Of a DNA stretch of 64,000 nt, positions 6,160 to 54,858 are shown piece after piece. The first letter of the stretch is position 1, and every line of letters starts with the position of its first letter. The stretch is from NCBI GenBank assembly GCA_001818315.1, contig MHKF01000012.1, forward strand, positions 251,149-315,148, in the 5' to 3' direction. Position numbers and translations under genes: made by a program. Source of the stretch: Candidatus Kerfeldbacteria bacterium RIFCSPLOWO2_02_FULL_42_19 (GTDB taxonomy: Bacteria; Patescibacteriota; Patescibacteriia; HO2-48-17). The notes beneath the pieces are model-generated. The model did no database searches, had not been told where the DNA came from, and saw nothing but the letters and a program-made list of their open reading frames with translations.

Positions 6160-6420
6160 TTAAAGAGACTGTCGCTGAATATGCTCGCGTCTGTGAGAAA
6201 TGAATGTGCATCATAGCAAGAGAGGAAGAAAACTCTCCTTTCTCAGCACACTGTGCAGTGTCAGTGCTTCGAAAGGGAGAGTCTGCCTCCTCTTTATGTT
6301 TTGTTCATTGGGTCTGTCGCCGAATACGCTTTCGTCTGTGAAATGCTACAATTGTAACAGAAATGGTATTCGGCGACAGACCCTCATTGCACAAGAAATG
6401 GCATTCAGCGCCAGTCTCTT
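6160..6420. repeat. Composite nested palindromic repeat (hairpin family A with two outer arm pairs)
   Basis: Two arm pairs are present. The first is agactgtcgctgaatatgc paired with gcattcagcgccagtctct. The second is gggtctgtcgccgaatac paired with gtattcggcgacagaccc. A hairpin lies between them, with the shared core ctcagcacactgtgcagtgtcagtgcttcgaaag as its loop. Confidence 0.8.
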
Positions 6421-6524
6421 GAAAGGCACATTGAATCGTACACGTATTTTGTTTATGATATACATACAATCTTTACATTGATCATTCCGCACCTATTAAA
6501 TACGCGGGAGTATATCGTCATTCT

Positions 6525-15495: not shown

Positions 15496-15657
15496 GTGAG
15501 AGGCAGGGATGCATATATTTTTTTCAAATGCTGTGATATCCAAACATGAACGATCTGTATTTGAAAGAGTTGCTGTAGTGCACACTTCCTTTCTGTATCT
15601 ACACAGTTGCTTATCACAACACATTTGAAAAAATTTATGCATCCCTGCCTCTCACGA
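15496..15657. repeat. Large intergenic palindrome with a 34-bp near-perfect stem and about 90-nt interior
   Basis: gtgagaggcagggatgcatatatttttttcaaatg pairs with catttgaaaaaatttatgcatccctgcctctcac. It sits between the dsbA-like and doxX-like genes. Confidence 0.8.
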
Positions 15658-21522: not shown

Positions 21523-21554
21523 CATTATAGTATTGAAAATCGCAGTATAAGAGT

Positions 21555-21700
21555 TTGGTGAATATCGCTTTTTCGGAACCGGCGCTCGGTCGCTTCCGGC
21601 GAGCGACCGGCGCCTGCGCCTCTCAGCGCGCCGGCCCTACGGGACCAATCCCGGCGCGCTTCCGAGAGCTTCCTCAAAAGCAATATTCACCAAACTCTAA
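21555..21700. repeat. GC-rich structured element bounded by perfect 19-bp terminal inverted repeats, in the tktN-tktC spacer
   Basis: gtttggtgaatatcgcttt and its reverse complement aaagcaatattcaccaaac sit at the two ends. The interior contains two GC hairpins. The first is ggcgc.cggtcgc.ttccggcga.gcgaccg.gcgcc. The second is agcgcgccgg, a 16-nt loop, then ccggcgcgct. The interior is about 70% GC against about 40% for the genome. Confidence 0.8.
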
Positions 21701-24013: not shown

Positions 24014-25024
24014 ATGTTAAAAACAAAAAAGAAACCAAAAGTTTTTGTGACGCGTGTGATTCTCGGAGAAGGCATTGCGCTTCTTCATAAACATTTTCAG
24101 GTTGTTGTTCGTAAGCAATCGGGTGTTATTTCCAAGACAGAATTGTATCATGGTGCAAAAGAAGCAGATGCACTTTTGTGTCTGTTGACGGATCATATTG
24201 ATCGCGCATTTTTAGAGCGTAATAGGCACCTCAAGATTATTGCAAATTACGCTGTTGGATTTGATAATATTGATATCGAAACAGCAACGCGGTTGGGTAT
24301 TGTTGTCACGAATACACCGGGAGTGCTCAATGAAGCTGTTGCAGAGCATACCCTCGCTTTGATCTGCGCCTTGGCGCGACGCATTCCGCAGGCAGATGCT
24401 TTCGTTCGTGCCGGAAAATATCGGGGTTGGGATCCATTGCTGTTTATCGGGAGTGATTTTTTTGATAAAACGCTCGGCATTGTAGGTTTGGGGCATATCG
24501 GTCTTGATCTTGCTAAGCGCGCGAGTCAGGGATTGGGTTTTAAGTTAGTGTATCATGATTTGCATCCGAATTCACAGTTTGAACGCCATTATGGTGCGCG
24601 CTACGTGAGCTTGCCGACGCTTTTGAAACTTTCTGATTTCGTATCCATGCACGTACCATTGCTTGATTCGACGCATCATTTGATTGGCGCTAGGGAGTTG
24701 CGGATGATGAAGCGTACCAGCTACTTGATTAATACTTCTCGCGGTCCGGTGATCGATGAAAAAGCTCTTGTGCAAGCGCTCCGCAAAGGTGTAATCGCCG
24801 GCGCTGCCTTAGATGTTTTCGAACATGAACCTAAGCTTACCACGGGTCTTACGCGTTTGCCGAATGTCGTTTTGACACCGCATATTGCCTCTGCTACGGT
24901 TGCAGCACGCGGGAAGATGTCTGTTTTAGCCGCGCAGGGTATTGTCCAAAGTTTTGCTGGTAAGCAGCCGGAGAATATCGTGAATCCTCTTGTGTGGCGG
25001 CGCGCGCTTCTGCGTTTGGCATAA
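24014..25024 (+). CDS. D-isomer-specific 2-hydroxyacid dehydrogenase (glyoxylate/hydroxypyruvate reductase-like)
   Basis: Rossmann GIVGLGHIGLDLA, the catalytic R/E/H arrangement, and LTPHIASAT. Confidence 0.88.
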   Translation: MLKTKKKPKVFVTRVILGEGIALLHKHFQVVVRKQSGVISKTELYHGAKEADALLCLLTDHIDRAFLERNRHLKIIANYAVGFDNIDIETATRLGIVVTNTPGVLNEAVAEHTLALICALARRIPQADAFVRAGKYRGWDPLLFIGSDFFDKTLGIVGLGHIGLDLAKRASQGLGFKLVYHDLHPNSQFERHYGARYVSLPTLLKLSDFVSMHVPLLDSTHHLIGARELRMMKRTSYLINTSRGPVIDEKALVQALRKGVIAGAALDVFEHEPKLTTGLTRLPNVVLTPHIASATVAARGKMSVLAAQGIVQSFAGKQPENIVNPLVWRRALLRLA

Positions 25025-25046
25025 TAGAATCCTACAATAACGCTTC

Positions 25047-25107
25047 TTCTTGAGGATATATTGCTTTTCAGAACACCCAGAAAAGTGTTCGTTCAAAGCA
25101 ATATATC
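25047..25107. repeat. Small palindromic element, family B
   Basis: cttgaggatatattgcttt pairs with aaagcaatatatcctcgag, flanking cagaacacccagaaaagtgttcgttc. The core is shared with the 18123 copy, and the arm ends are related to the 21555 element. Confidence 0.7.
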
Positions 25108-25132
25108 CTCGAGAAGACACTCTTTTTTTGGT

Positions 25133-25936
25133 ATGATTCCTTATTATCAATTCACTACTTTAAACATTGGACCCATCACGATACAAGTGTGGGGACTTAT
25201 GGTTTCGCTCGGCATCGCAGCAGCGCTGGTAGTTATTTACAAGCGGGCTAAAAGATTTGGTTTGGACACGCAGTTGATTTTTGACATGGCATTTTGGTTA
25301 TTATTCGGTGCTTTACTCGGTGCGCGGGTTTTATATGTTGTGTATAACCCGACGTATATTTTTGCATCATTCTGGAATTTTTTTCGGGTGTGGGAAGGCG
25401 GCATGTCTATTATGGGTGGGTTCTTAGGTTCACTCCTTGCTGCGTATTTCGTCTGGCGAAAACGGCGATTTGATTTTTTGGCGTATGCTGATGTGATGTT
25501 GTTTGGCTTGCCGTTGGGTTTATTTATTGGCCGATTAGGATGTGGCGCGATTCATGATCATATTGGGAAACCCACGACTCTGCCGTGGGGTATCGCGTGG
25601 CCGGATGGCACCGTGCGTCATGAAAATGGCTTGTACCTCTCGCTGAAAGGCTTAGTCTTGTTTGTGATTATGCTTCTTGCGCACCGCAAGCCGCGATGGA
25701 AAGGGTTTACGACCGTTTTGTTTTTGATCTTGTATGGCACCGTGCGATTTTTTCTTGACTTTTTGCGCGCCGTGGATTTACCGGGAGTTTCCGATGTTCG
25801 TTATTTTGGTTTGACTCCAGCGCAATATTTGAGCATCGTGATGGTACTCTTCGGTGGTTATCTCTATTGGCGACTGAGGCTCCGTAAGTCAGTTGTAGCA
25901 ACTCACTCTGCGCAACATTCGATGACAAATTCATAA
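25133..25936 (+). CDS. lgt: Prolipoprotein diacylglyceryl transferase
   Basis: Lgt signature (GPITIQVWGLM...GARVLYV...GGFLGSLLA...GRLGCGAIHDHIGKPTTLPWGI). Confidence 0.9.
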   Translation: MIPYYQFTTLNIGPITIQVWGLMVSLGIAAALVVIYKRAKRFGLDTQLIFDMAFWLLFGALLGARVLYVVYNPTYIFASFWNFFRVWEGGMSIMGGFLGSLLAAYFVWRKRRFDFLAYADVMLFGLPLGLFIGRLGCGAIHDHIGKPTTLPWGIAWPDGTVRHENGLYLSLKGLVLFVIMLLAHRKPRWKGFTTVLFLILYGTVRFFLDFLRAVDLPGVSDVRYFGLTPAQYLSIVMVLFGGYLYWRLRLRKSVVATHSAQHSMTNS

Positions 25937-25940
25937 AGAG

Positions 25941-26018
25941 CAAAGAGGAGGAAGACTCTACTTTCGCAGCACTGACAAGGCATTATGTGCTGCGAAAGTA
26001 GAGTCTTCCTCCTCTTTT
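25941..26018. repeat. Family A hairpin with a perfect 32-bp stem, immediately 3' of lgt (likely terminator)
   Basis: caaagaggaggaagactctactttcgcagcac, loop tgacaaggcattat, then the exact reverse complement. A T-run follows. Confidence 0.85.
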
Positions 26019-26291
26019 TTCTATGATCAAAATGTATTTTTCACAGGCGAAAGCGCATTCGGCGGCAGTTTCATAAAGGTATTTTTTATTTAGCCATTTT
26101 TTTTATTTTCAACTTGATCATTCCGCGTCAGCTTGCTACGCGGAGGTTCATTTGGAGTAAGTTTGACATTTTCTTTATTTTGTGATATAATTTTATTCCA
26201 AATTCAGGATTGTGAAAGTGCGTCGTGCGCTCTAAGCAATCGCTGAAGGAACCTTAAAAATTCAACAAATGAGCGACCAGCGTTTGTAAAG

Positions 26292-27293
26292 ATGGTCTTT
26301 CGAAACGTCTGGCGCTTCTACAGAAAAAGGGGACAAAGCATGTACTATCTTTGCATTTTTTTAGTGGCAGTCTTCATTGCGTTGATGATTTTCCGGAGGA
26401 ACTGGGATCGGGTGGTGTTCACGGACGCTCACGTTTGGATTTCCGATATCATTGTAGGTGTGGTGGCGGCGGGAGTGTGGTTATTCCTTAATCATCTGAA
26501 TGAGAAGTTCCTGTCGGACTCCGGATGGTGGTGGTTGGTGTATGAAGGTTTCCTCGTGCTTGGGGCGTTTTTCCTACTGCGAGGAACCAGGAAGGTCGTC
26601 CCGCCGTGTAGGAGGTGGCGGGTGTACGGGTTCAACGGCCTCGAGGACCCGGATCTATTGGACGGCCAGAATCTCGTGCCGCCATGGAAGGACGTGTACG
26701 AGGCGGCGGACAACACCGCGGACACCAAATGGGAAATGGTGAAGGGCGAGTGGCAGTGGCGTCGAGATGCCATGCGCTCGACGCTGATCTTGATGGTCCT
26801 TTTCGTTCCAACCTTTCTCCTGCACTGCCTCGTAGAGAACCCGCACTTTCTGGTGGGGGTTTCCTGGGTCAAAACAGGTGCGAGGATTGTGGCCACAGGG
26901 AGCACCACCGTCAGTACGCCTTTCGAGGATTACCTGGAGGAAGAGAAGGCGGTGGAGTACCGGCCATTTTACCCGGAGACCTGCCGCTTCCGGATTGACC
27001 CGCCGGGAAACCCCTCTTTAATTGAGGTTGACATGGTCTTGGAGTCCACTTTGCGGCAAAATCCAGAAGTTTGGACCAGGACGCCGTACACCACGCCGAA
27101 CTTTGGAATTTGGCACCTCCGGAAGCACGAGTTCTATCAGCAGTTCCGGAGGGAGCCGTGGGTTCTCCGGCTGAACCTCAGGCGGGTCGATCAACACGGA
27201 TTTGTTCACAAAACTTACATCCGGTTGATGGTCGACTGTGCGGACCGCGGTCATGGTGCGTCGGGGGCCACTGTAGTATCTGCAGCACCGTGA
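26292..27293 (+). CDS. Hypothetical Trp-rich membrane protein with anomalous GC composition (likely horizontally acquired)
   Basis: Region 26450-27300 is about 58% GC against about 40% elsewhere, with spurious open frames on all strands, typical of high GC. Four N-terminal TM helices. The true start is probably MYYLCIF at 26340. Confidence 0.5.
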   Translation: MVFRNVWRFYRKRGQSMYYLCIFLVAVFIALMIFRRNWDRVVFTDAHVWISDIIVGVVAAGVWLFLNHLNEKFLSDSGWWWLVYEGFLVLGAFFLLRGTRKVVPPCRRWRVYGFNGLEDPDLLDGQNLVPPWKDVYEAADNTADTKWEMVKGEWQWRRDAMRSTLILMVLFVPTFLLHCLVENPHFLVGVSWVKTGARIVATGSTTVSTPFEDYLEEEKAVEYRPFYPETCRFRIDPPGNPSLIEVDMVLESTLRQNPEVWTRTPYTTPNFGIWHLRKHEFYQQFRREPWVLRLNLRRVDQHGFVHKTYIRLMVDCADRGHGASGATVVSAAP

Positions 27294-27457
27294 GTGATGT
27301 CCCTCGATTCTCATACGGCGTCGTAGTGCCCGGCGCCACGATTTTACACCTTCGTTTAGCCCTTTATTAGAACCCTCCAAGCTTTCGAGCGCGGAGGGTT
27401 CTTTGTTTTCTTATAGCACAGTTATCAAAAATGAGTTTCGACAATACACAGATAAGA

Positions 27458-27533
27458 GATAAGAGAGGAGAAGATGATAAGCTTTCGAAGCACTAACACT
27501 GCACTGTGTGCTAAGAAAGGTTATCATCTTCTC
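27458..27533. repeat. Family A hairpin in reverse orientation, 23-bp perfect stem
   Basis: gataagagaggagaagatgataa, a 30-nt loop containing gcactgtgtgctaagaaag (the core in reverse complement), then ttatcatcttctcctctcttatc. Confidence 0.85.
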
Positions 27534-27796
27534 CTCTCTTATCTCGTTTCGATTGTATTGCGCTGCGCCTGTGATTCATCAACTCGTGGTATAATGGGTC
27601 TGTTGCCGAATACCATTTCTGTTGCAATCGTAGCATTTCGGCCAGAATCGCTTCAAAATTTTTCGGCTTATATTCCATATAAACCTCAAAATTTATTCAG
27701 CGATTCTGTCACGAAATTCTACGATTTCACAGGCGAAAGCGCATTCGGCGACAGACCCATAATAGAAATCGATCGTTTACTCTTAAAATTTTCAAC

Positions 27797-30700
27797 ATGC
27801 GTACGAATCTTCCGATACAATTTTCATTTCGCTCGTCCGCTTTTCTTTTGATGCTGACAACTTTCGCATTCCTTCTACCACAGGCGACGGAAGCGAAGTT
27901 TGGCGATGTTGCTACGTACGTCGGTAAAATCATTGGCGGTGACGGCAAAGACAAACTCGAAGCGTATTTGGATCAGCCAAAGGATTTTGCGGTGGACAGC
28001 GCTGGGAATTTTTATATCGCCGACACGATGAACAATGTCGTACGGAAGATTGCAACCGACGGGAAAGTTTCCACGGTTGCGGGCACTGGAGCTTACGGCG
28101 ATACCGACGGCGACACGAATAAAGCACGTTTTGGTTGGCCAGAAGCGATTGCTCTCGATGGCAGTACGATTTTTTTAGCCGATACGGATAACAGCAAAAT
28201 TAAAAAAATTTCCGGCGGTAAAGTGACGACTCTGGTTTCTTCTGGTCTCTCGAAACCCAAAGGATTGTACGCCGACACTGAAAACGACATTTTGTACATT
28301 GCCGATACTGGCAACAATGCTTTGAAAAAAGTGAGTTTCAGTGGCGGAAGTGTGAGTAAAGTCGCTTCCGGTCTTTCCTCGCCAACGAAGATGACGAAAA
28401 ATGGCAGCGCGTTGTACGTTGCGAATACCGGCAATCAACGTATCGTCGCTGTGGATATTACCAACGGAAGCGTGACGACGCTCGCTTCTGGATTCTTGAA
28501 TATTGGCGGTGTGTATTTTTACGATGGCGCGGTGTATGAAGTCGATGGCGATGGACTTTTCGACTTTCTGTACAAAGTAACGCTCGATGGCACAAAAACG
28601 TTGCTTGCCGAAGACGAGCATATGATTACGTTGAATACTTCTTCCGCCATACTCGTTCGTGATGGAAAAATATACGTGCTCAATAGCGGTGGCAGTAGTA
28701 TTTATCGTTTTGATTTGGATGGGCAGAATCCTTTTCACTATGCCGGTAAAGATCGGTTCGGGAATGATAATGGCACGGGTACAGGTGCGCTCATTGGACG
28801 GCCGAAGGGATTGGTGCTTTCACACGACAGAAAATTTTTCTATCTTGCGGAAAATAACAAAATTCGGAAAATCGAACGCACAACGGGTGTTGTGACGTCA
28901 CTCATCGGCAACAGTGTGGATAATTATAAAGAAGGGAGAACGGGTTCAGAAGGTCGTTTTAGCGATATTACTGGGGTCGTGATCAGTCCGGATAACAAGA
29001 CGCTTTATGTCGTTGACCGTAATAATAATCGTATCCGCGGCGTGGATATTGCGACGAAAACTGATTTCCTCATCACTGGCGCGGGTGAGATTAATTCGAC
29101 AAGCGAATCGGATAACGGCTATCAAGAAGGTGCAAAATGTCTTGGAGAATTCAAGGCAGCGGCTGCCGGTTGCGCGTATTTCAATCGTCCTATCGGCATT
29201 GCCATTTCGCTGGATGGCAATTTTCTCTATATTGCGGATACCGGCAATCATCGGATTCGTCGTGTGCGTGTGAGTGATGGAGTGACGACGCTCATTGCTG
29301 GCTCTGGTAAGGCTGGTTTTAAAAACGGCGCCGGAGCTGCCACCGAGTTGAGTAGTCCTATGAGTGTCGCTATTGATCATGACGGAGCGTTTCTGTATGT
29401 CGCTGATAAAGATAATCATGCGATTCGGCGCATACGACTTTCGGATCGTAAAGTCGAGACACTCGCAGGTACTGGAGAGCCGGGTTACAATGACGCAACG
29501 TTTGATAAGACGGTGTTTTCGTTTCCTGAATACGTGACCTTTGGTGGCGATGGACACGTATATGTTTCAGAGGTCGGTGGACAACGCATTCGTCAGCTTG
29601 ATCTTGAGGAAGAAGTCACGAAGCTTGTGGCTGGTTCTGGCATTCGAGGCTTTCGTGATGGCAAAAAAAACGACGCGCAGTTTAATAATCCGAAAGGGCT
29701 CGTCGTTGACGCGCCGGATGATCGTGTGTACGTCGCGGATAATTTTAATGATCTCATTCGCGTGATTGATATTGAAGGCGAAGCGCCTTTTACAGAGCAA
29801 GCTCCCAAAGTTTCGCGCGTGGATCCCAATATGAAGACGGTTCCCGATGGGCCAGAAGTGACGTTATTTGTTTCAGTCACGGGGAGTAATTTTCGTCATG
29901 GCGCTAAAGCGATTTTCGGTACATTTGAGGCCGTCAATACGTATGTTCAGTCGTCTACACAACTTGCTGTTGAGCTTCCCTTTGGATTGATGTTTCCGGG
30001 TTCTTATGATGTCACCGTGCAGAATGTTGATACGCAACAGCACACGCTTCTGAAAGGCTTTCGTGTGGCGAATAAAGATAATACGGTTCCGGATGTGTAT
30101 TTTCGAGCTGATGGCACGGTGACGGGAGGCAGCGCTCCGGCGCCTGCGAAGTCGACATTTTTTCCATATGATTCCACGCTCGTTGGCGGATTTCATCCGT
30201 TGTCGTGCGATCTCACCGGTGATGGAGTCGCTGAGCTTTTAACGGGTCCTGATGTTGGGTTTGGACCGCAGGTTCGCGTATTCCAACAGAATGGAAAGGC
30301 ATTGTTTTCCTTCTTTGCGTATGCAGAAACATTACGCTCTGGTGTGCGCGTTGCCTGCGGCGATCTCACCGGCGATCGTTTTGCGGAAATCGTGACTGCT
30401 CCCGGACCTGGCGGTCGGCCGCATATACGCATTTTTGATCACAAAGGAGTGTTGAAGCATCCCGGATTCTTTGCGCTGGACGGTTTATTTCAGGGAGGTA
30501 CATACGTTGATGTAGGGAACGTGAATGGCGACCGTCGCGGGGATATTATTGTTACGGCGGGGAAAGGCGGCGGCCCGCAGGTGACCGTGCATCGCATGGA
30601 CGGTACGATGCTTGCGAACTTTTTCGCGTATGATAAGAATACGTTTCGCGGTGGAATCCGTTCGGCGGTTTTAGATTTTGACGATGACGGTATTGATGAA

Positions 30701-31072
30701 ATTATTGTTGGACCGGAATTTGGCGCGCCGCACATACAAATGTTCAGTGTCCAGAAAAATAAAGTAAAATTACTGAATCCAGGGTTTTTCGCGTTCAGCA
30801 AGGATTTCTACGGTGGCGTGAGTGTCGCTGGTGGAGATATTGATGGCGACGGTCGTGATGAAATTATTGTTGGGGCAGGGGTTGACGCGACGCCGCTCGT
30901 GCGGGTATTTAATAAAACTGGTTCAAAAATTATCAAAGAATTGTTGGTGTTTGCGGACGGTTTTTTGGGCGGTGTGAATGTTACAGCCGGCGATACTGAC
31001 GGCGATGGGGTCGATGATATTACCGTGATGCCACGGAGTAATAGCGTACCAATGCTTCGTGTTTTGAAGTGA
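27797..31072 (+). CDS. Large secreted NHL-repeat / IPT-TIG / FG-GAP (VCBS) repeat surface protein
   Basis: Signal peptide. About 12 NHL-like blades (LYVADTGNHRIRRV, LYVADKDNHAIRRI). A TIG domain (VSRVDPNMKTVPDGPEVTLFVSVTGSNF). C-terminal FG-GAP repeats (GDLTGDGVAE, GDIDGDGRDEII, GDTDGDGVDDI). Confidence 0.8.
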   Translation: MRTNLPIQFSFRSSAFLLMLTTFAFLLPQATEAKFGDVATYVGKIIGGDGKDKLEAYLDQPKDFAVDSAGNFYIADTMNNVVRKIATDGKVSTVAGTGAYGDTDGDTNKARFGWPEAIALDGSTIFLADTDNSKIKKISGGKVTTLVSSGLSKPKGLYADTENDILYIADTGNNALKKVSFSGGSVSKVASGLSSPTKMTKNGSALYVANTGNQRIVAVDITNGSVTTLASGFLNIGGVYFYDGAVYEVDGDGLFDFLYKVTLDGTKTLLAEDEHMITLNTSSAILVRDGKIYVLNSGGSSIYRFDLDGQNPFHYAGKDRFGNDNGTGTGALIGRPKGLVLSHDRKFFYLAENNKIRKIERTTGVVTSLIGNSVDNYKEGRTGSEGRFSDITGVVISPDNKTLYVVDRNNNRIRGVDIATKTDFLITGAGEINSTSESDNGYQEGAKCLGEFKAAAAGCAYFNRPIGIAISLDGNFLYIADTGNHRIRRVRVSDGVTTLIAGSGKAGFKNGAGAATELSSPMSVAIDHDGAFLYVADKDNHAIRRIRLSDRKVETLAGTGEPGYNDATFDKTVFSFPEYVTFGGDGHVYVSEVGGQRIRQLDLEEEVTKLVAGSGIRGFRDGKKNDAQFNNPKGLVVDAPDDRVYVADNFNDLIRVIDIEGEAPFTEQAPKVSRVDPNMKTVPDGPEVTLFVSVTGSNFRHGAKAIFGTFEAVNTYVQSSTQLAVELPFGLMFPGSYDVTVQNVDTQQHTLLKGFRVANKDNTVPDVYFRADGTVTGGSAPAPAKSTFFPYDSTLVGGFHPLSCDLTGDGVAELLTGPDVGFGPQVRVFQQNGKALFSFFAYAETLRSGVRVACGDLTGDRFAEIVTAPGPGGRPHIRIFDHKGVLKHPGFFALDGLFQGGTYVDVGNVNGDRRGDIIVTAGKGGGPQVTVHRMDGTMLANFFAYDKNTFRGGIRSAVLDFDDDGIDEIIVGPEFGAPHIQMFSVQKNKVKLLNPGFFAFSKDFYGGVSVAGGDIDGDGRDEIIVGAGVDATPLVRVFNKTGSKIIKELLVFADGFLGGVNVTAGDTDGDGVDDITVMPRSNSVPMLRVLK

Positions 31073-34004: not shown

Positions 34005-34257
34005 AGTTTTCTCCTTAGTTAGTGCACTTTCGTCATTGCACTGATTGATTGTGATGTCGAAGTACGATCTCTACAAACAAAAATTCTGGCTTGTATGCCA
34101 GAATCTCGGTATCATGTTTTGATTATTTTTATGCATGATTATTCCTCCATATTGTTCTTCGAGATTTTGACATACGAGTATCGCTCCGCGTAAAAATCGG
34201 AGATCCATTGTTTCCAGACGATATATATTGTCGTGCGAGGGTCAACATCACCTTATT

Positions 34258-34305
34258 TTAACTTGATAATTCCGCGCTAGCTTGATGCGCCGGTTTCATT
34301 CTCAG
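34258..34305 (+). repeat. Conserved about 45-nt motif (family C), copy 2 of 3
   Basis: ttttaacttgataattccgcgctagcttgatgcgccggtttcatt. Compare the copies at 26108 and 53088. Confidence 0.7.
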
Positions 34306-34358: not shown

Positions 34359-34523
34359 GGGCTGTCGCTATAAATACCGTTTCCTGTGCAACGCGCAAAA
34401 GAAAAGAGGAGGAAGACGAGACTTTCTCAGCACACTGTGCAGTTGTTAGTGCTTCGAAAGCTCTTGTCTTCCTCCTCTTTTCTTTATACATGAAATAAGA
34501 AACGGTATTTATGGCGACAGTCC
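34359..34523. repeat. Composite family A element: outer 25-bp inverted-repeat arms plus inner 16-bp-stem hairpin
   Basis: gggctgtcgctataaataccgtttcc pairs with gaaacggtatttatggcgacagtcc. The inner hairpin aaaagaggaggaagac...gtcttcctcctctttt carries the ctcagcacactgtgcag core. Confidence 0.85.
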
Positions 34524-34546
34524 TCTGATTGTCTTTTCGATAATAT

Positions 34547-39699: not shown

Positions 39700-39885
39700 G
39701 GGACTGTCGTTGAATGTGCTTTTGTCTGTGAAAAAGCATTTGCACAAAGTACAAAGAGGAGCAAGACTCTCCTTTCTCAGCACACTGTGCACTGTCAGTG
39801 TTTCGAAAGCGAGAGTCTTGCTCCTCTTTGTACTTTGAATCACATTCATTGACTCACAGACAAAAGCGCATTCAACGACAGTCCC
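39700..39885. repeat. Composite family A element: 31-bp outer inverted-repeat arms plus perfect 27-bp-stem hairpin
   Basis: gggactgtcgttgaatgtgcttttgtctgtga pairs with tcacagacaaaagcgcattcaacgacagtccc. The inner hairpin is caaagtacaaagaggagcaagactctc and its exact reverse complement, with the ctcagcacactgtgcactgtcagtgtttcgaaag core. Confidence 0.9.
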
Positions 39886-50061: not shown

Positions 50062-50090
50062 CATATTTTTTGATCTCGGTATAATTCTTT
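50057..50090 (+). promoter_or_regulatory. Promoter (TTGACA-16-TATAAT) and leader of the rplJL operon
   Basis: ttgacatattttttgatctcggtataat, then an about 120-nt leader before rplJ. Confidence 0.55.
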
Positions 50091-50210
50091 TAAGCCGTAG
50101 AATACAGGTGTTCTCGTATTGCTTTTGCAAACCGGAACTTAATTGCCTGTCGAGGTAGATAAGATGATTGGTGTTTTATTTTATTCTGCGGTAGGTAACG
50201 CAGTTTTTTT

Positions 50211-50735
50211 ATGGCTAAAACTCGTACAGAAAAAGAAAATATTGTTCAGTCTTTAGGTAAACTCTTCAAGCAGAACGCAGGGATTGTGTTTGTTGCTTAT
50301 TCCCGAGTTTCGGTAAAGGATATGCTTGCGCTTCGTAGGGCCGTGAAACAGAGTCAATGCGGTGTGTCCGCAGTAAAGAAAACACTACTTACGCGTGCCT
50401 TAGTAATTGCTGGAGATACGTATGATGTCGGCACATTAAACGGTTCTGTCTTTGTGGGCTATGGCAGCGATCAAGTCGCTCTTGCGAAAGTGATCGATCG
50501 ATTTCGCAAAGAGCACGGAGAAAATATAAAGATGCTTGGCGGTATACTTGACCACACAGCGGTTTCGAGCGAGCAGATCATGTCACTTGCTCAACTTCCT
50601 TCACGAATGGAACTGACGGCACAATTCGTTGGAACTCTTGCAGCTCCGATTGTTGGGTTTGCACGAGTATTATCGGGAACAATGCAAAGTTTTGTGTACG
50701 CCCTGTCTGCTTTGCAGAAGAAAAAGGCTTTATGA
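50211..50735 (+). CDS. rplJ: 50S ribosomal protein L10
   Basis: KTRTEKENIVQSLGKLFKQNAGIVFVAYSRVSVKDMLALRRAV. Confidence 0.9.
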   Translation: MAKTRTEKENIVQSLGKLFKQNAGIVFVAYSRVSVKDMLALRRAVKQSQCGVSAVKKTLLTRALVIAGDTYDVGTLNGSVFVGYGSDQVALAKVIDRFRKEHGENIKMLGGILDHTAVSSEQIMSLAQLPSRMELTAQFVGTLAAPIVGFARVLSGTMQSFVYALSALQKKKAL

Positions 50736-51277: not shown

Positions 51278-51402
51278 TTTTTGTTCGTTGGTGTATAAAG
51301 TGAGAGGGGGAGGATGATATTTTTGGAGCACACTGTGCATTCTTAGTGCTCTGAAAATATCCGCTGCCACCTCTCTTTTATTTTTTCAATATTGCATTTC
51401 CT

Positions 51403-53079
51403 TTAAAGGATCTCCTGCTGATAGCAGGGATTGCAGAAAATTTTTTCCGGACGCTCGGGAGCATATGTCGTTTCGAATTCCGTGGGACAGCGATTTTCGC
51501 TATGTTCTGAATGTTTGAGATCGCACTGACATTGACGGTGATAGAGTTGCAGCGGGTAATGACGCTTCCACCGCTTTTGAAAACGGCAAGCGGGACACAG
51601 GAGTGGAAGCGGTAAGTGCAGCAGTTTCAGCAGTTTCAATTCAATACTTTGGATGCGATAATTTTTTTTGCATTCAACGCAGGCGAGGATTTTTTCGAGA
51701 ATTATTTCTGCAACTTTTTCAATCTGTGAGTGGATGTCGGTAGCCCGCAACGTTTCTTTTCCATACAAACCTGCGGATTCATCCTGCCAGCGCCAACCTC
51801 GTACAAGCACTTTTTTCTTTGTCAGAGGAAAATAATCCTGCGACATCGTTTCGTTGTAGGTATGAGGACTATATTGTACTGGAAGAAATTCTCCCCATTC
51901 ACCGTCGTCGCGCATTTTGTTAATAATCTTTTTCCGCAGATCGTGATATTTCGTCTCTGAATACTGTTGATTGAGAATGCAAAATCGTTTTCCGCGGAGA
52001 CCCACGCATCCAAAGAGGTGATCCGAATTTTCACAAAAGAAGCAATACGCGATGAACATGCAGTCAGGACTCGTGTAAGAACAGGCGGCGCTGTTGAATC
52101 GAATCCCAGAATTTACTTCGTAACTGTTTTGTGAACCTAGAGTATGGTTCACGCGATAACAGTCCTTTGTTTTGAGCATGCGGAAACATTCACCGCAATT
52201 TTCATTTTCTATCATGTTAAAGCCCAAACGGATGTTTTTTGAAGATTCGATTGCCTCGCCGACGACGTTTTCGCTCTTTCGAATGATCGCGAATTCAACG
52301 GGAAACTTCAGAGAGTGTTGCGCAAAACGTTTTCGGTGTTCTTCGAAACTCTCGCGGTTTTTAAGTGCTTCCGTAAGACGCTTTCGGTATTCCACTTCAG
52401 GCAGCGACTCGTTAAACCAGTAAAATTTTTTGTGTTTGAGATTCACGCATCCGAAACAATTCTGACAGTCAGTAAGGTCACGGCCAAGGTAACATTCGTT
52501 GCAGTTATAAGCTCGTGTGAGGAAGGCGGAGCGATAGGAATAATATGTATAAACGCAATCATAAACGAGTTCACTGTGATACACTTGTAATCCATCCGCA
52601 CAGTCTTTTGACCAGTCTATGTTGCGGGAATATACAATGTTTTCAAGTTCTAAACCGCTGAATACAAGATAACAGTCCTTGCCGTCGAGGACGTAATTGA
52701 CGTATTCTGAATTGACGTTTTCTCCTGGTTGCCAGAGATTATAGTGTGGCACATGTGTGAGTAGTTGGTGGAGTTGTTCGAAAAATGGTTTTTGCGGATC
52801 ATATGTTTGCGCATATTTCATCGGATCCCATTGGTCAGAATACCAACATGGTCGGCAATATACGTGCGCGTATGAAGCGGGCGAATACATTGCAATGATA
52901 TTTTTTTTACACAATTCGCATTGACGACGATAGAGTGATGCTTCGTTGCGATATGTCATCCGACGCCGGTGAGCATCGGTCGCGCACAGTGTTGGTTCCG
53001 GAAGTTCAAGCGCGTTGAGTATTTTTTTGTCCTCAGTAGCAATACTGAAAGAAGTTTTGCATTCACGACACGTAGGCAT
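51403..53079 (-). CDS. Cysteine-rich protein of unrecognised family, paralog B (556 aa)
   Basis: About 40 Cys, mostly in CxxC pairs: CRECK, CELCKK, CRPCW, CNECYLGRDLTDCQNCFGC, CGEC, CVEC..CPACR, QCQC and CNPC. It has no signal peptide. It aligns along its whole length with 53188..54858. Confidence 0.6.
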   Translation of the reverse strand: MPTCRECKTSFSIATEDKKILNALELPEPTLCATDAHRRRMTYRNEASLYRRQCELCKKNIIAMYSPASYAHVYCRPCWYSDQWDPMKYAQTYDPQKPFFEQLHQLLTHVPHYNLWQPGENVNSEYVNYVLDGKDCYLVFSGLELENIVYSRNIDWSKDCADGLQVYHSELVYDCVYTYYSYRSAFLTRAYNCNECYLGRDLTDCQNCFGCVNLKHKKFYWFNESLPEVEYRKRLTEALKNRESFEEHRKRFAQHSLKFPVEFAIIRKSENVVGEAIESSKNIRLGFNMIENENCGECFRMLKTKDCYRVNHTLGSQNSYEVNSGIRFNSAACSYTSPDCMFIAYCFFCENSDHLFGCVGLRGKRFCILNQQYSETKYHDLRKKIINKMRDDGEWGEFLPVQYSPHTYNETMSQDYFPLTKKKVLVRGWRWQDESAGLYGKETLRATDIHSQIEKVAEIILEKILACVECKKNYRIQSIELKLLKLLHLPLPLLCPACRFQKRWKRHYPLQLYHRQCQCDLKHSEHSENRCPTEFETTYAPERPEKIFCNPCYQQEIL

Positions 53080-53087
53080 ATTATGAG

Positions 53088-53140
53088 TTTTTAACTTGAT
53101 AATTCCGCGTCAGCTTGCTGCGCGGAGATTCATTCGAGTT
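53088..53140 (+). repeat. Conserved about 45-nt motif (family C), copy 3 of 3, in the spacer between the two Cys-rich paralogs
   Basis: ttttaacttgataattccgcgtcagcttgctgcgcggagattcatt, with the internal hairpin tccgcg...cgcgga. Confidence 0.7.
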
Positions 53141-53187: not shown

Positions 53188-54858
53188 TTAAACTATCTCC
53201 TGTTGATAACATAGGTTGCAGAAAACTTTTTCCGGACGCTCGGGGGCATATGTCGTTTCGAATTCTGTGGGACAGCGTTTGTTGGTGTGCGCTGGGTGCT
53301 TCCGAGAGCAGTCGCACTGCCTTTGATATAGCCGCGGAAAAGGGATGCGCGACAGACGCTCGTTCAAGCGACATTCCGGACAGATCTTCGGCAGAGGGAG
53401 TGACAACGTACGTAACACCTGCAACTCCTTTGGCTGAATGCGGTAGTTAAGATCGCACGTCGCACAGACAAGAATAGCTTTGGTAATATCTGACGAGGTT
53501 TGTTTGATCGAAGCGGGTATGTGTTCAATCGAGAGTGTTTCTTTGCCGCGAATTCCGCCATGATTGTTTTCAAATTGCCAACCCTTGGCAAGCACCTCTT
53601 CGCGTGTTAGGGGAAATAACTCAATCGCAGCCGAATCGTTGTAGGCATGCGGGCTGTATTTCACCGGTGGAAATTCACCCCATTCATCGCATTGTTGCAT
53701 GTTGGTAACAATCTGCTGACGTAACCGCTCATACTCCTCTTGAGTGTATTGTTTATTGAGAACGCAGAATTTTTTCTTTCTTAAGCCGACGCAGCCGAAA
53801 ATGTTATCACAATTGGCACAGAAGAAAGAATAGGCCATGAACGAACAACCCTCAGCCATCATGGAACAGAGTGTATAAGACGTGGTCAAACCTCCGCCGA
53901 TGTATTCGTACATGTTTTCAATAAAACCAGCATTACTCACACGGTACGCATTTTTAGTTTGATAGGTAATCCGATAGGCATCTCCTATATTTTCAGAATC
54001 CTGTAATCCGAAGGAATAACGCACATTTACGGCATTAAAGATCCCATCACCCGAGCAATTTTCGCTTTTGCGGATCACGGCATACTCGACTAGAAATTGT
54101 TTGGCATGTTCGGAGAAACGCTGTCGGTGCTGTTGAATGCTTGTCCGGTCCTTCAACGCTTCTTTCAGCCGGCGCTTGTATTTTGTTTCCGAAAGCGCTT
54201 CGTTATACCAATAAAAACGTTTGTGCTTCAGATTGACGCAACCGAAGCAGTCATGGCAGTCCGCCAAATCCCTGCCGAAATAGCAATCTGAGCAGCGCTC
54301 GCATCGTGTTAAGAAAGCGCTCTTGAAACTTTCGCGTGCGTAAACACAATCATATAAAAGTTCTGAACTGTGAATGAATATATTATCGACGCAGTCTCGA
54401 CACTGATCATTATTTTTGTTATAGACACAGCCTTCGGATTTGAGACAGGAAAAGGAGAGGTAACAATCCTTGCTGTTCCATGTGAAATTTGTATAAATAG
54501 AATTTACGACGTTCCCTATTTGAAATACGTTAAAGTTGGGCACCTGTTTCATCAGATCCAACCATTGATCAAAAAACGGCCGATTCGGATTATAGTCACG
54601 GCCGTATTGCAGAGGATCCCATTTGTCCGAATACCAACAATCGCGGCAGTACACATGCGCATACGAAGCTGGCGAATACATGGCAAGCAGAGATTTACCG
54701 CACATCTCGCACTGGCGACGGTTAAAGATGTCGTTCATTGCGATAGGCGAGCCGCCGCTGTAGTGAGTGTTCAAAACACAGCTTGGGTTCCGGCACCTGC
54801 AAAAGAGAAAGAATTTTTTTGTCTTCTGAATGGACGGAGAAAGATATGTTACATTCAC
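53188..54858 (-). CDS. Cysteine-rich protein of unrecognised family, paralog A (556 aa)
   Basis: Shares long identical blocks with paralog B: YSPASYAHVYCR, DCYL.FS, SELLYDCVY, SAFLTR, DCxxCFGCVNLKHK.FYW.NE, VIRKSEN, FGCVGLR.K.FC.LN.QY, DEWGEF.PV.YSPH.YN and RCPTEFETTYAPERPEK.FCN.CYQQEI. Confidence 0.6.
   Translation of the reverse strand: MNVTYLSPSIQKTKKFFLFCRCRNPSCVLNTHYSGGSPIAMNDIFNRRQCEMCGKSLLAMYSPASYAHVYCRDCWYSDKWDPLQYGRDYNPNRPFFDQWLDLMKQVPNFNVFQIGNVVNSIYTNFTWNSKDCYLSFSCLKSEGCVYNKNNDQCRDCVDNIFIHSSELLYDCVYARESFKSAFLTRCERCSDCYFGRDLADCHDCFGCVNLKHKRFYWYNEALSETKYKRRLKEALKDRTSIQQHRQRFSEHAKQFLVEYAVIRKSENCSGDGIFNAVNVRYSFGLQDSENIGDAYRITYQTKNAYRVSNAGFIENMYEYIGGGLTTSYTLCSMMAEGCSFMAYSFFCANCDNIFGCVGLRKKKFCVLNKQYTQEEYERLRQQIVTNMQQCDEWGEFPPVKYSPHAYNDSAAIELFPLTREEVLAKGWQFENNHGGIRGKETLSIEHIPASIKQTSSDITKAILVCATCDLNYRIQPKELQVLRTLSLPLPKICPECRLNERLSRIPFPRLYQRQCDCSRKHPAHTNKRCPTEFETTYAPERPEKVFCNLCYQQEIV

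What the first reader, a model, noticed from the sequence alone, without database searches (positions are those of the whole stretch)
25941..27760. GC-rich foreign gene (58% GC) bracketed by repeat-family elements: a probable insertion hotspot
The ORF 26292..27293 has GC content about 18 points above its neighbours, with matching GC3-rich codon usage and spurious open frames on all six frames. Immediately 5' are a 32-bp-stem family A hairpin (25941-26018), an arm motif ttcacaggcgaaagcgcattcggcggcag (26041-26069), and a family C motif (26108). Immediately 3' are an inverted family A hairpin (27458-27533) and a second direct copy of the arm motif, cacaggcgaaagcgcattcggcgacagaccc (27719-27751). 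Direct repeats flanking a compositionally alien gene between lgt and a surface-protein gene suggest acquisition by repeat-mediated recombination or a MITE-like vehicle.
Basis: seen in the sequence. Interest (0 to 1): 0.65.

Follow-up and report, generated by a model that had tools for sequence, protein, structure and literature searches.

The report
Acquired orphan gene flanked by MITEs
An orphan membrane-protein gene with unusually GC-rich codons was inserted long ago between two conserved genes of a Kerfeldbacteria (CPR) genome, at a spot where relatives carry nothing or other cargo, and the repeats around it are separate insertions of a small transposable element, not the vehicle that delivered the gene.

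Summary
The ORF has GC3 0.70 against 0.40±0.045 for 47 other window genes and the lowest codon adaptation in the window.

The gene is real. Its likely start is 26340 (317 aa) and dN/dS is about 0.11. It has a perfect sigma-70 promoter, a conserved leader and a conserved terminator. Only one homologue (56% identity) exists among about 15 billion proteins. That homologue also lies directly upstream of the NHL gene and is also GC3-rich.

Two syntenic relatives have lgt abutting the NHL promoter (199 bp and 48 bp). Another carries a 7.1-kb six-gene block there, and more distant ones carry a DsbA gene. So the gene was probably gained at a variable junction, and "insertion hotspot" is supported.

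The repeats are not the vehicle. They belong to a MITE family with about 32-nt terminal inverted repeats starting GGGTCTG and three perfect 5-bp target-site duplications. Together with a palindromic motif, these repeats occupy 8 of 22 intergenic gaps. The 3' copy (27596-27758) has its own duplication (ATAAT) inside the NHL -10 box, and that site is empty in the relative that carries the gene.

Function and donor are unknown. The gain predates the split of the two lineages, yet GC3 has not decayed.

The parts
25061..25936 (+). lgt (prolipoprotein diacylglyceryl transferase), the left anchor gene of the variable junction
   Evidence: Pfam PF01790, E 1.8e-51. Orthologues in L163, L181, L179 and L003/L004 lie upstream of the NHL gene.
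25937..26022 (.). Hairpin A copy (core of the MITE family). It starts right after the lgt stop and is followed by a T-run, so it is terminator-like.
   Evidence: 36-nt arms, 94% complementary. MFE -62.2 kcal/mol, z -11.4. Six copies in the window share a conserved apical part and have compensatory lower-stem changes.
26041..26072 (-). Solo terminal inverted repeat ('arm motif') of the MITE family. Its outer tip is degenerate (GAAACTG instead of GGGTCTG) and there is no partner arm to the left of hairpin A.
   Evidence: Fuzzy TIR search found 4 mismatches in 24 nt. Repeat families D6/D7.
26107..26152 (.). Family C palindromic motif (CCGCGTCAGC..GCTACGCGG). There are four copies in the window. 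It is not part of the conserved gene unit.
   Evidence: Families D5/D11. MFE -14.1 kcal/mol, z -3.2. Absent upstream of the homologue in L001.
26163..26191 (+). Promoter of the orphan gene: TTGACA, 17-nt spacer, TATAAT with a TG extension (12/12 match to consensus).
   Evidence: Promoter scan. A -35/-10 pair is conserved in L001 (TTGATT ... TGCTATAGT).
26192..26339 (+). 5' leader of about 148 nt with conserved blocks (TTATTCCAAA, AAAATTCAAC, CTTTCGAAACGT.TGG.GCTT). It is non-coding, because the conserved block is read in a different frame in L001.
   Evidence: Alignment with L001. The consensus structure is weak (-7.25 kcal/mol, 2 compensatory pairs). No Rfam family reaches its gathering score here.
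26340..27293 (+). Orphan gene, 317 aa (an in-frame ATG at 26292 would give 333 aa). It has 3-4 N-terminal/central TM helices, a conserved 65-aa loop and a C-terminal all-beta (jelly-roll-like) domain with two conserved Cys. GC3 is 0.70.
27370..27410 (+). Intrinsic terminator of the orphan gene (GAACCCTCC, 14-nt loop, GGAGGGTTC, then TTTGTTTT).
   Evidence: MFE -21.5 kcal/mol, z -5.0. The 32-nt stem-loop is 100% identical in L001, including the loop.
27451..27550 (.). Hairpin A copy in the opposite orientation. It is ancestral to the window/L001 split.
   Evidence: 43-nt arms, 88% complementary. z -11.4. L001 keeps a remnant of the 3' half at the same place (TGCTTCGAAAGCTATACTCTTCTCACCT).
27587..27595 (+). 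-10 box of the NHL gene promoter (TGGTATAAT). Its last 5 nt (27591-27595) are the left copy of the target-site duplication.
   Evidence: Conserved in L001 (TGATATAAT), L163 (TGGTATACT) and L181 (TGGTATAAT) at a short distance from the NHL start.
27596..27758 (.). Complete MITE copy (E4), 163 nt, with TIRs GGGTCTGTTGCCGAATACC... and ...GCATTCGGCGACAGACCC. It is flanked by the 5-bp duplication ATAAT/ATAAT (27591-27595 and 27759-27763). It sits between the NHL -10 box and the NHL start codon.
   Evidence: TIR and flank analysis. Empty sites in L001, L163 and L181. MFE -73.5 kcal/mol, z -11.2. It is the same element type as E2 (6310-6383, duplication TCATT) in the opposite orientation.
27797..31072 (+). 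NHL-repeat / IPT-TIG / FG-GAP surface protein gene, the right anchor of the junction
   Evidence: Pfam. 86% identical in L001, 68% in L181, 66% in L162, 65% in L163 and 51% in L003/L004.

Best explanation
The locus is a single-gene insertion at a variable junction, and a MITE family colonised its flanks independently.

(1) Inferred ancestral state. lgt was followed directly by the promoter of the large NHL/FG-GAP surface-protein gene.

(2) Gain of the gene. In the common ancestor of this Candidatus Kerfeldbacteria genome and the L001 lineage, a self-contained unit arrived between them. It consists of a consensus promoter, a leader of about 148 nt, a 317-aa membrane-protein gene and an intrinsic terminator. 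The unit comes from an unsampled source. Its G/C-ending codon usage implies either a very GC-rich donor or a composition that is actively maintained.

(3) The protein (inferred). It is a polytopic membrane protein with a beta-sandwich domain. That domain is probably extracytoplasmic, given the positive-inside rule and two conserved Cys. The protein evolves about 3.7 times faster than the adjacent NHL gene but is under purifying selection. The gene stays linked to the NHL gene even where both outer flanks differ. I infer a cell-envelope role, possibly together with the NHL protein.

(4) The repeats. The hairpins and 'arm motifs' belong to a genome-specific, non-autonomous MITE family. It has terminal inverted repeats of about 32 nt starting GGG(T/A)CTG, an optional long internal hairpin A and 5-bp AT-rich target duplications, which is Tn3/TIME-like. 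Copies insert into intergenic DNA. One inserted into the NHL -10 box after the gene was already there, adding a 163-nt hairpin to the NHL 5' UTR. These copies did not deliver the gene.

Shown: gene reality, presence/absence pattern, empty sites, target duplications. Inferred: direction of the event (gain), foreign source, protein topology and role, and the transposase family.
For: Composition:
- GC3 0.70 against 0.40 (sd 0.045), and CAI-like 0.597 against 0.760.

Real gene:
- dN/dS about 0.11, and per-codon-position differences of 0.31/0.24/0.56.
- Own 12/12 promoter.
- Conserved leader and identical terminator in L001.

Orphan status:
- Two family members in the word-indexed search and in the full HMMER scan of 1.84 billion representatives.
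- None in JGI metagenome contigs or IMG/VR.

Presence and absence:
- The L001 homologue is directly upstream of an 86%-identical NHL gene.
- L163 has full synteny (tkt, hyp, 2-HADH, DsbA, lgt, 199 bp, NHL).
- L181 has lgt, 48 bp, NHL.
- L179/L162 have lgt, six genes, NHL.
- L003/L004/L082-84 have lgt, DsbA, NHL.

Co-divergence with the neighbour:
- The 4-fold-site difference is 0.60 for the ORF and 0.59 for NHL.

MITE:
- Five paired elements, three of them with perfect 5-bp duplications (TCATT, ATAAT, CTGAT). Chance per pair is 0.0018.
- E4 has an empty site in three relatives.
- No transposase among the window ORFs tested.
- The TIR terminus GGGTCTGTCGC matches positions 2-12 of the 38-nt sequence I recall as the Tn3 IR at 10 of 11 nt. 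That 38-mer is found about 110 nt downstream of blaTEM in plasmid records.
- Tn3-family ends are 38 bp, have box A GGGGT and a 5-bp stagger. TIMEs have 5-bp AT-rich direct repeats.
Against: - No donor or any outside homologue was found, so 'foreign' rests on composition and on presence/absence only.
- Loss in the L163 and L181 lineages, rather than gain, cannot be strictly excluded. Only one other carrier exists.
- GC3 has not decayed despite near-saturated synonymous change. A simple F81 amelioration model needs an ancestral GC4 of about 0.93 (bootstrap 0.77-1.30) and is feasible in only 20% of bootstraps. This fits a fading transfer signal poorly.
- In L001 the upstream neighbour is a MerR-HTH gene, not lgt, so the left junction is not conserved even in the closest relative.
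- Protein topology and role are inferred from a modest model (pLDDT 69) and generic fold matches.
- Tn3 affiliation is partial. The ends are GGG rather than GGGG, there is no inner TAAG, and no cognate transposase was seen.
Confidence: 0.6

Rival explanations
1. The gene was brought in by the flanking repeats. Either a circular intermediate recombined through the direct 'arm' repeats, or the gene rode in a composite, MITE-bounded transposon (a TIME-COMP-like vehicle).
For: - Direct copies of the 32-nt arm flank the gene (26041-26072 and 27727-27758; 27 of 32 nt identical).
- Hairpin A copies in opposite orientations bracket the whole inserted block (25937-26022 and 27451-27550).
- TIME-COMP elements, in which two TIMEs mobilise the DNA between them, are documented (PMC4133298).
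Against: - The right arm is the end of a complete element with its own perfect duplication ATAAT, so it transposed on its own.
- L001 has the gene unit but an empty site there, and no arm or family C motif anywhere in its 6.4 kb.
- The left element lacks its outer arm. The arms present do not form outward-facing inverted ends around the gene.
- No duplication flanks the block (CATAA against GTTTC, read).
- MITE-family repeats and the family C motif together fill 8 of 22 gaps.
Confidence: 0.06
2. The gene is native rather than foreign. It is a fast-evolving, lineage-specific envelope gene, possibly a partner of the NHL protein, whose G/C-ending codons are maintained by selection or a local bias. 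It was lost, or has diverged beyond recognition, in the other lineages.
For: - GC3 is equally high in both carriers (0.70 and 0.64) after near-saturated synonymous divergence that equals that of the NHL neighbour.
- The gene stays linked to NHL in L001 although both outer flanks differ.
- dN is about 3.7 times that of NHL, so orthologues at the L162/L163 distance could be undetectable.
- L162/L179 carry another GC3-rich (0.66), membrane-anchored 200-aa orphan directly upstream of NHL.
Against: - L163 and L181 have no room for any gene (199 bp and 48 bp).
- The L162 200-aa protein shows no detectable similarity (hhalign E 0.87, BLASTP E above 1).
- Ribosomal-protein genes in the window have ordinary GC3 (0.36-0.39), so high GC3 is not this genome's expression-linked codon bias.
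- The gene has its own consensus promoter and terminator rather than being integrated into an operon.
Confidence: 0.2
3. Cassette-like allele exchange. The conserved leader and the identical terminator act as recombination anchors, and each lineage obtained its allele separately from a GC-rich pool.
For: - The terminator stem-loop is 100% identical and the leader has conserved blocks, while 4-fold sites in the coding region are only 40% identical.
- GC3 has not ameliorated.
Against: - The synonymous divergence of the ORF equals that of the adjacent NHL gene. Simple vertical co-divergence predicts exactly this.
- No third allele or pool member exists in 15 billion proteins.
- Conserved promoters, leaders and terminators are also explained by ordinary functional constraint.
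Confidence: 0.07
4. The ORF is not a gene. It is a spurious open frame caused by GC-rich DNA.
For: - Open frames of at least 60 aa occur in 5 of the 6 frames.
- There is no database family.
Against: - 56% aa identity over 309 residues with a homologue, with substitutions concentrated at third positions and dN/dS about 0.11.
- Conserved promoter, SD-like AAGGGGA and terminator.
- The alternative frames have no family match above threshold.
Confidence: 0.01

Closest known systems
Strain- or lineage-specific genomic islets: single orphan genes inserted at a variable intergenic junction between conserved anchor genes
   Same: - Atypical GC3 and codon usage.
- Its own promoter and terminator.
- Empty-site alleles in syntenic relatives.
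- Different cargo at the same junction in other lineages.
   Different: - No integrase, tRNA, att-like repeat or other recognisable insertion machinery.
- No donor homologue anywhere.
- The insertion is old (it predates a split with near-saturated synonymous divergence), yet GC3 has not ameliorated.
[quoted passage not shown] 2014, PMC4133298)
   Same: - Small (74-254 nt), non-coding, multicopy elements.
- Long terminal inverted repeats that begin with a G-run followed by TCTG.
- 5-bp AT-rich target duplications.
- Copies nested in or adjacent to each other.
   Different: - The ends start GGG rather than GGGG(T).
- Only the outer 11 nt resemble the recalled Tn3 IR, and there is no inner TAAG.
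- Well-matched TIR length is about 24-32 nt rather than 38 nt.
- No Tn3-family transposase was seen in the 64-kb window.
- The host is a CPR bacterium.
- The gene is not inside a composite.
Structured bacterial MITEs that end up in transcripts (for example Correia elements of Neisseria, RUP/BOX of pneumococci, ERIC). This comparison is from my own knowledge.
   Same: - Long, stable hairpins in intergenic DNA.
- Copies directly after stop codons that look like terminators (after lgt and after rplL).
- One copy inside a 5' UTR (NHL).
   Different: - No sequence relationship.
- The target duplication is 5 bp rather than TA.
- Any effect on transcription here is inferred, not measured.

Membership tests
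MITE (non-autonomous element with terminal inverted repeats) | Terminal inverted repeats | tested here: met
   There are five paired elements. The E6 arms are identical over 32 of 32 nt. E2 and E4 match over about 18-24 nt.
MITE (non-autonomous element with terminal inverted repeats) | Target-site duplication flanking the copies | tested here: met
   Perfect 5-bp duplications flank E2 (TCATT), E4 (ATAAT) and E5 (CTGAT). E1 has 4 of 5 and E6 has none. Chance per pair is 0.0018.
MITE (non-autonomous element with terminal inverted repeats) | Small, multicopy and without coding capacity | tested here: met
   The elements are 74-254 nt. There are at least 5 paired copies plus solo arms and hairpin-only copies in 64 kb. 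The only ORF call across one copy (125 aa) has no family match.
MITE (non-autonomous element with terminal inverted repeats) | Empty site in a related genome | tested here: met
   For E4, L001, L163 and L181 go from the NHL -10 box to the start codon in 30-41 nt with no element.
Tn3-derived MITE (TIME) | 5-bp target duplication, AT-rich targets | tested here: met
.
Tn3-derived MITE (TIME) | IR of about 38 bp whose outer end is the conserved box A (GGGGT) | tested here: inconclusive
   The ends are GGGTCTG, GGGACTG or GAGACTG, as delimited by the duplications. They match positions 2-12 of the 38-nt sequence I recall as the Tn3 IR at 10 of 11 nt, and the rest is unrelated (6 of 26).
Tn3-derived MITE (TIME) | Cognate Tn3-family transposase (TnpA) in the same genome or community | not testable with these tools
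   No transposase among the long window ORFs tested. The rest of the genome could not be scanned. The TIR 16-mer hits in IMG/VR are chance matches, and there is no plasmid match.
Composite transposon / TIME-COMP carrying the orphan gene | Two complete elements with outward-facing inverted ends around the cargo, and one shared target duplication | tested here: not met
   The left element has no outer arm. The right element has a private duplication. The flanks of the block differ.
Composite transposon / TIME-COMP carrying the orphan gene | Cargo and bounding elements travel together in relatives | tested here: not met
   L001 carries the cargo but no arm or family C motif, and it has an empty E4 site.
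Horizontally acquired genomic islet | Composition and codon usage atypical for the host | tested here: met
   GC3 is +6.7 sd and the CAI-like index is -5.4 sd.
Horizontally acquired genomic islet | Absent from the orthologous site in related genomes | tested here: met
   L163 and L181 are empty. L162/L179 and L003/L004/L082-84 carry other cargo.
Horizontally acquired genomic islet | Homologue in a plausible donor lineage or mobile element | tested here: not met
   No homologue exists beyond the sister lineage in 15 billion proteins, PHROGs, IMG/VR or JGI contigs.
Horizontally acquired genomic islet | Adjacent integration machinery (integrase, tRNA, att repeats) | tested here: not met
   There is no tRNA in the window and no recombinase next to the gene. 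In L001 only a MerR/excisionase-type HTH domain was found upstream.

The most novel reading that the evidence does not exclude
The G/C-ending codon usage of this gene is not a fading trace of transfer. It is actively maintained in two lineages across near-saturated synonymous turnover. It comes with an invariant terminator stem-loop and a conserved leader. The cause could be selection on the mRNA, a locus-specific biased conversion or recombination process, or cassette-like allele exchange at a hotspot next to a major surface protein of an episymbiotic CPR bacterium. In that reading the orphan protein is a rapidly evolving, surface-exposed partner of the NHL/FG-GAP protein.
Probability: 0.15. 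Interest if true: 0.6.

Novelty: new member of a known kind. Interest (0 to 1): 0.35.

Why it matters
- It documents, with empty-site alleles, a gene-gain hotspot between two conserved genes in reduced CPR genomes. The same junction holds nothing, one orphan gene, a DsbA gene or a six-gene block in different lineages.
- It gives what seems to be an undescribed MITE family in a Kerfeldbacteria genome, with Tn3-like end features. One copy sits in the 5' UTR of a large surface-protein gene and others act as terminator-like hairpins. This is useful for annotation (a spurious 125-aa ORF is called across it) and for assembly (short contigs break at these repeats).
- The orphan protein is a candidate envelope or host-interaction factor. 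Its non-decaying GC3 is a small, testable puzzle about how composition is maintained.
- None of this overturns current understanding.

Tried and rejected
- **Family searches for the orphan protein.** Pfam, PHROGs, PADLOC, NCBIfam and PDB sequence searches all found nothing.
- **Full HMMER scan of 1.84 billion representatives.** It returned only the known homologue plus two tandem-repeat artefacts.
- **Protein-pattern scans of JGI metagenome contigs and IMG/VR.** Nothing found.
- **Rfam.** Nothing reached a gathering score in the region. The sub-threshold hits are generic miRNA-type hairpin matches to the MITE hairpins.
- **Leader as a riboswitch-like RNA.** With two sequences there is only a weak consensus fold. 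Not supported and not excluded.
- **Alternative frames as the remnant of another gene.** No family above threshold.
- **Homology between the orphan and the proteins upstream of NHL in L162 and L005.** None detected.
- **Strain-level polymorphism of the MITEs.** All 12 contigs that carry the exact protein are at least 99.94% identical across 25000-28500, so they are uninformative.
- **Search for the L001 genome's own lgt.** It was not found. The search did yield L179 and L181.
- **TIR searches in IMG/VR and plasmids.** Chance hits or none.
- **A MerR-HTH gene next to the L001 homologue as a recombinase.** Only the HTH domain matches, with no resolvase or integrase domain.
Full report
**Observation**

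The window is a genome of about 44% GC. It is identified through exact protein matches as Candidatus Kerfeldbacteria MAGs from the CPR/Patescibacteria.

ORF 26292-27293 has GC 0.556. Its GC1 (0.554) and GC2 (0.413) are ordinary, but GC3 is 0.701. The 47 other ORFs of at least 150 aa have mean GC3 0.403 with sd 0.045. A codon-adaptation index built from those genes gives 0.597 against 0.760±0.030, the lowest in the window.

Local GC peaks at 0.58-0.60 and drops to 0.385-0.398 in the flanking intergenic DNA. Against lgt (0.451) and the NHL gene (0.485) the excess is 7-10 points.

Open frames of at least 60 aa occur in 5 of the 6 frames, as expected for GC-rich DNA, and they have no family matches above threshold. 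They are extremely stable (z about -11).

**The gene is real and self-contained**

Only one homologue exists, P0002 (56% identity, a Logan contig, locus L001). This holds in the 5.8-billion-cluster search and in the exhaustive HMMER scan of 1.84 billion representatives. The two extra hits in that scan are tandem-repeat artefacts.

Differences fall at codon positions 1/2/3 as 0.31/0.24/0.56, and dN/dS is about 0.11.

Upstream lies a perfect TTGACA-17-TATAAT promoter with a TG extension. It is conserved in L001, as are blocks of the leader of about 148 nt. One conserved block (CTTTCGAAACGT) is read in different frames in the two genomes. The start is therefore ATG 26340 (317 aa, as NCBI annotates) rather than 26292.

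Downstream is a canonical intrinsic terminator (27370-27410). Its 32-nt stem-loop, including the loop, is identical in L001.

**Comparison of the locus in relatives**

| Locus | NHL identity to window | State of the lgt-NHL interval |
|---|---|---|
| L001 | 86% | Homologue directly upstream of NHL. Upstream neighbour is a divergent MerR-HTH gene, downstream neighbour also differs |
| L163 | 65% | Window synteny (transketolase, hyp, 2-hydroxyacid dehydrogenase, [DsbA], lgt), then 199 bp, then NHL |
| L181 | 68% | lgt, 48 bp containing TGGTATAAT, NHL |
| L162/L179 | 66% | Same upstream synteny, then a 7.1-kb six-gene block with two SPFH/Band-7 genes |
| L003/L004/L082-84 | 51-52% | A 200-aa DsbA-like gene |

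The lgt-NHL junction is therefore a variable site. The orphan gene is most simply explained as a gain in the common ancestor of the window and L001 lineages.

**Age and the composition puzzle**

Four-fold degenerate sites differ at 0.60 in the orphan (saturation 0.71) and at 0.59 in the NHL gene (saturation 0.73). This fits co-divergence since the split.

Both orphan alleles nevertheless keep the same G>C>A≈T third-position preference (GC3 0.70 and 0.64). Under a simple F81 model of neutral drift to the genomic 4-fold composition (GC4 0.47), the ancestor would need GC4 of about 0.93. The bootstrap range is 0.77-1.30, and the ancestor is feasible in only 20% of replicates.

Either the donor was extremely GC-rich or the composition is being maintained. 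Ribosomal-protein genes here have ordinary GC3, so this is not the genome's expression-linked bias. I could not resolve this point.

**The repeats**

The 'arm motif' is the terminal inverted repeat of a MITE family:

- There are five paired copies in the window: 6165-6418, 6310-6383 (nested in the first), 27596-27758, 34359-34524 and 39700-39885.
- There are also solo arms and hairpin-only copies.
- The ends read GGG(T/A)CTGTCGCCGAAT....
- Hairpin A is the optional core between the arms. It has a conserved apex and compensatory lower-stem changes among copies.

Three copies have perfect 5-bp duplications (TCATT, ATAAT, CTGAT) and a fourth has 4 of 5. The chance of a perfect match is 0.0018 per pair.

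The copy 3' of the orphan gene (27596-27758) sits exactly after the NHL -10 box. The window reads TATAAT|element|ATAAT.... L001 reads TATAAT|ACTTTC..., and L163 and L181 also go from the -10 box to the start codon in 30-41 nt. This copy therefore arrived by transposition after the gene was in place. It now puts a -73.5 kcal/mol hairpin in the NHL 5' UTR.

By contrast, L001 retains a remnant of the 3' half of the hairpin A copy at 27451-27550. That copy is therefore older than the split.

The copy at 25937-26072 has only an inner-facing arm. No TIR, hairpin A or family C copy occurs in 1.85 Mb of other fetched loci, including L001, L162 and L163. MITE-family repeats and the family C motif together occupy 8 of 22 intergenic gaps of at least 100 bp.

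Together these results reject both the recombination-via-direct-repeats model and the composite-vehicle model. They do agree with the looser idea that this AT-rich, non-essential intergenic DNA attracts insertions.

**Family assignment of the MITE**

Membership in the general MITE class is met on all tested criteria.

The features point to Tn3-derived elements (TIMEs). These have 5-bp AT-rich duplications. The terminus here matches positions 2-12 of the 38-nt sequence I recall as the Tn3 IR at 10 of 11 nt, and that 38-mer lies about 110 nt downstream of blaTEM in plasmid records.

The evidence against is that the ends start GGG rather than GGGG(T), the inner part is unrelated, and no transposase is in the window. 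I treat 'Tn3-like' as a lead, not a membership. The paper search found no description of MITEs in Patescibacteria.

**Verdict**

This is a new example of known kinds, namely an orphan islet plus a MITE family. Two loose ends remain: the non-decaying GC3 and the invariant terminator. Interest is modest.

Noticed in passing
window 6165-6418 and 6310-6383: A 74-nt MITE copy (duplication TCATT) is nested inside a 254-nt copy that also contains a hairpin A. Elements of this family insert into or next to each other.
   Followed up: partly
window 51300-51376: A hairpin A copy without arms lies directly after the rplL (L7/L12) stop and is followed by a T-run. It looks like the operon's terminator. The copy after lgt (25937-26022) has the same layout.
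   Followed up: partly
window 6471-6505, 26107-26152, 34256-34290, 53089-53134: The family C palindromic motif (TTGATAATTCCGCGTCAGCTTGCTGCGCGGAG) has four copies, three of them within about 100 nt of a MITE copy. Its 3' half (CGCGGAGG(G)TTC) resembles the orphan gene's terminator. Its function is unknown.
   Followed up: partly
window 27370-27410 and L001 1912-1943: The orphan gene's terminator stem-loop is 100% identical between two genomes whose 4-fold sites are only 40% identical, and the 14-nt loop is included. That is more constraint than a terminator normally needs.
   Followed up: partly
window 27474-27851: A 125-aa ORF called by the ENA pipeline runs through hairpin A and the MITE into the NHL start region. 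It has no family match and is probably spurious.
   Followed up: yes
L162 473-7281 / L179 9984-16792: In a related lineage the same lgt-NHL interval holds six genes. They include a 721-aa unknown, two SPFH/Band-7 proteins, and a 200-aa GC3-rich (0.66) membrane-anchored orphan directly upstream of NHL.
   Followed up: partly
window 51403-53079 and 53188-54858 (- strand): These are tandem paralogues of 558 and 556 aa with no Pfam match. They share DNA repeats of 71-78% identity, and a family C motif lies between them.
   Followed up: no
window 15496-15655 and 21550-21698: Two further long inverted repeats sit in intergenic DNA (28-nt arms at 96% and 29-nt arms at 90% complementarity). The first begins GTGAGAGG, like the hairpin A copy at 51300.
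   Followed up: no
window 50077-50218: A ribosomal protein L10 leader (RF00557, 51.5 bits) lies upstream of rplJ-rplL. It is the only Rfam family in the window that reaches its gathering score.
   Followed up: no
L168 and L169 (window 26115-27510 and 26115-27328): Short-read Logan assemblies of the same organism break inside the family C motif and, for L168, the hairpin A loop. The repeats fragment assemblies.
   Followed up: yes
L001 1-660 (- strand): The gene upstream of the homologue in the closest relative starts with a MerR/excisionase-type HTH (PADLOC mad1 E 2.8e-11, IS607-type HTH E 9e-7). No recombinase domain lies in the 220 aa available, and the window has no counterpart.
   Followed up: partly
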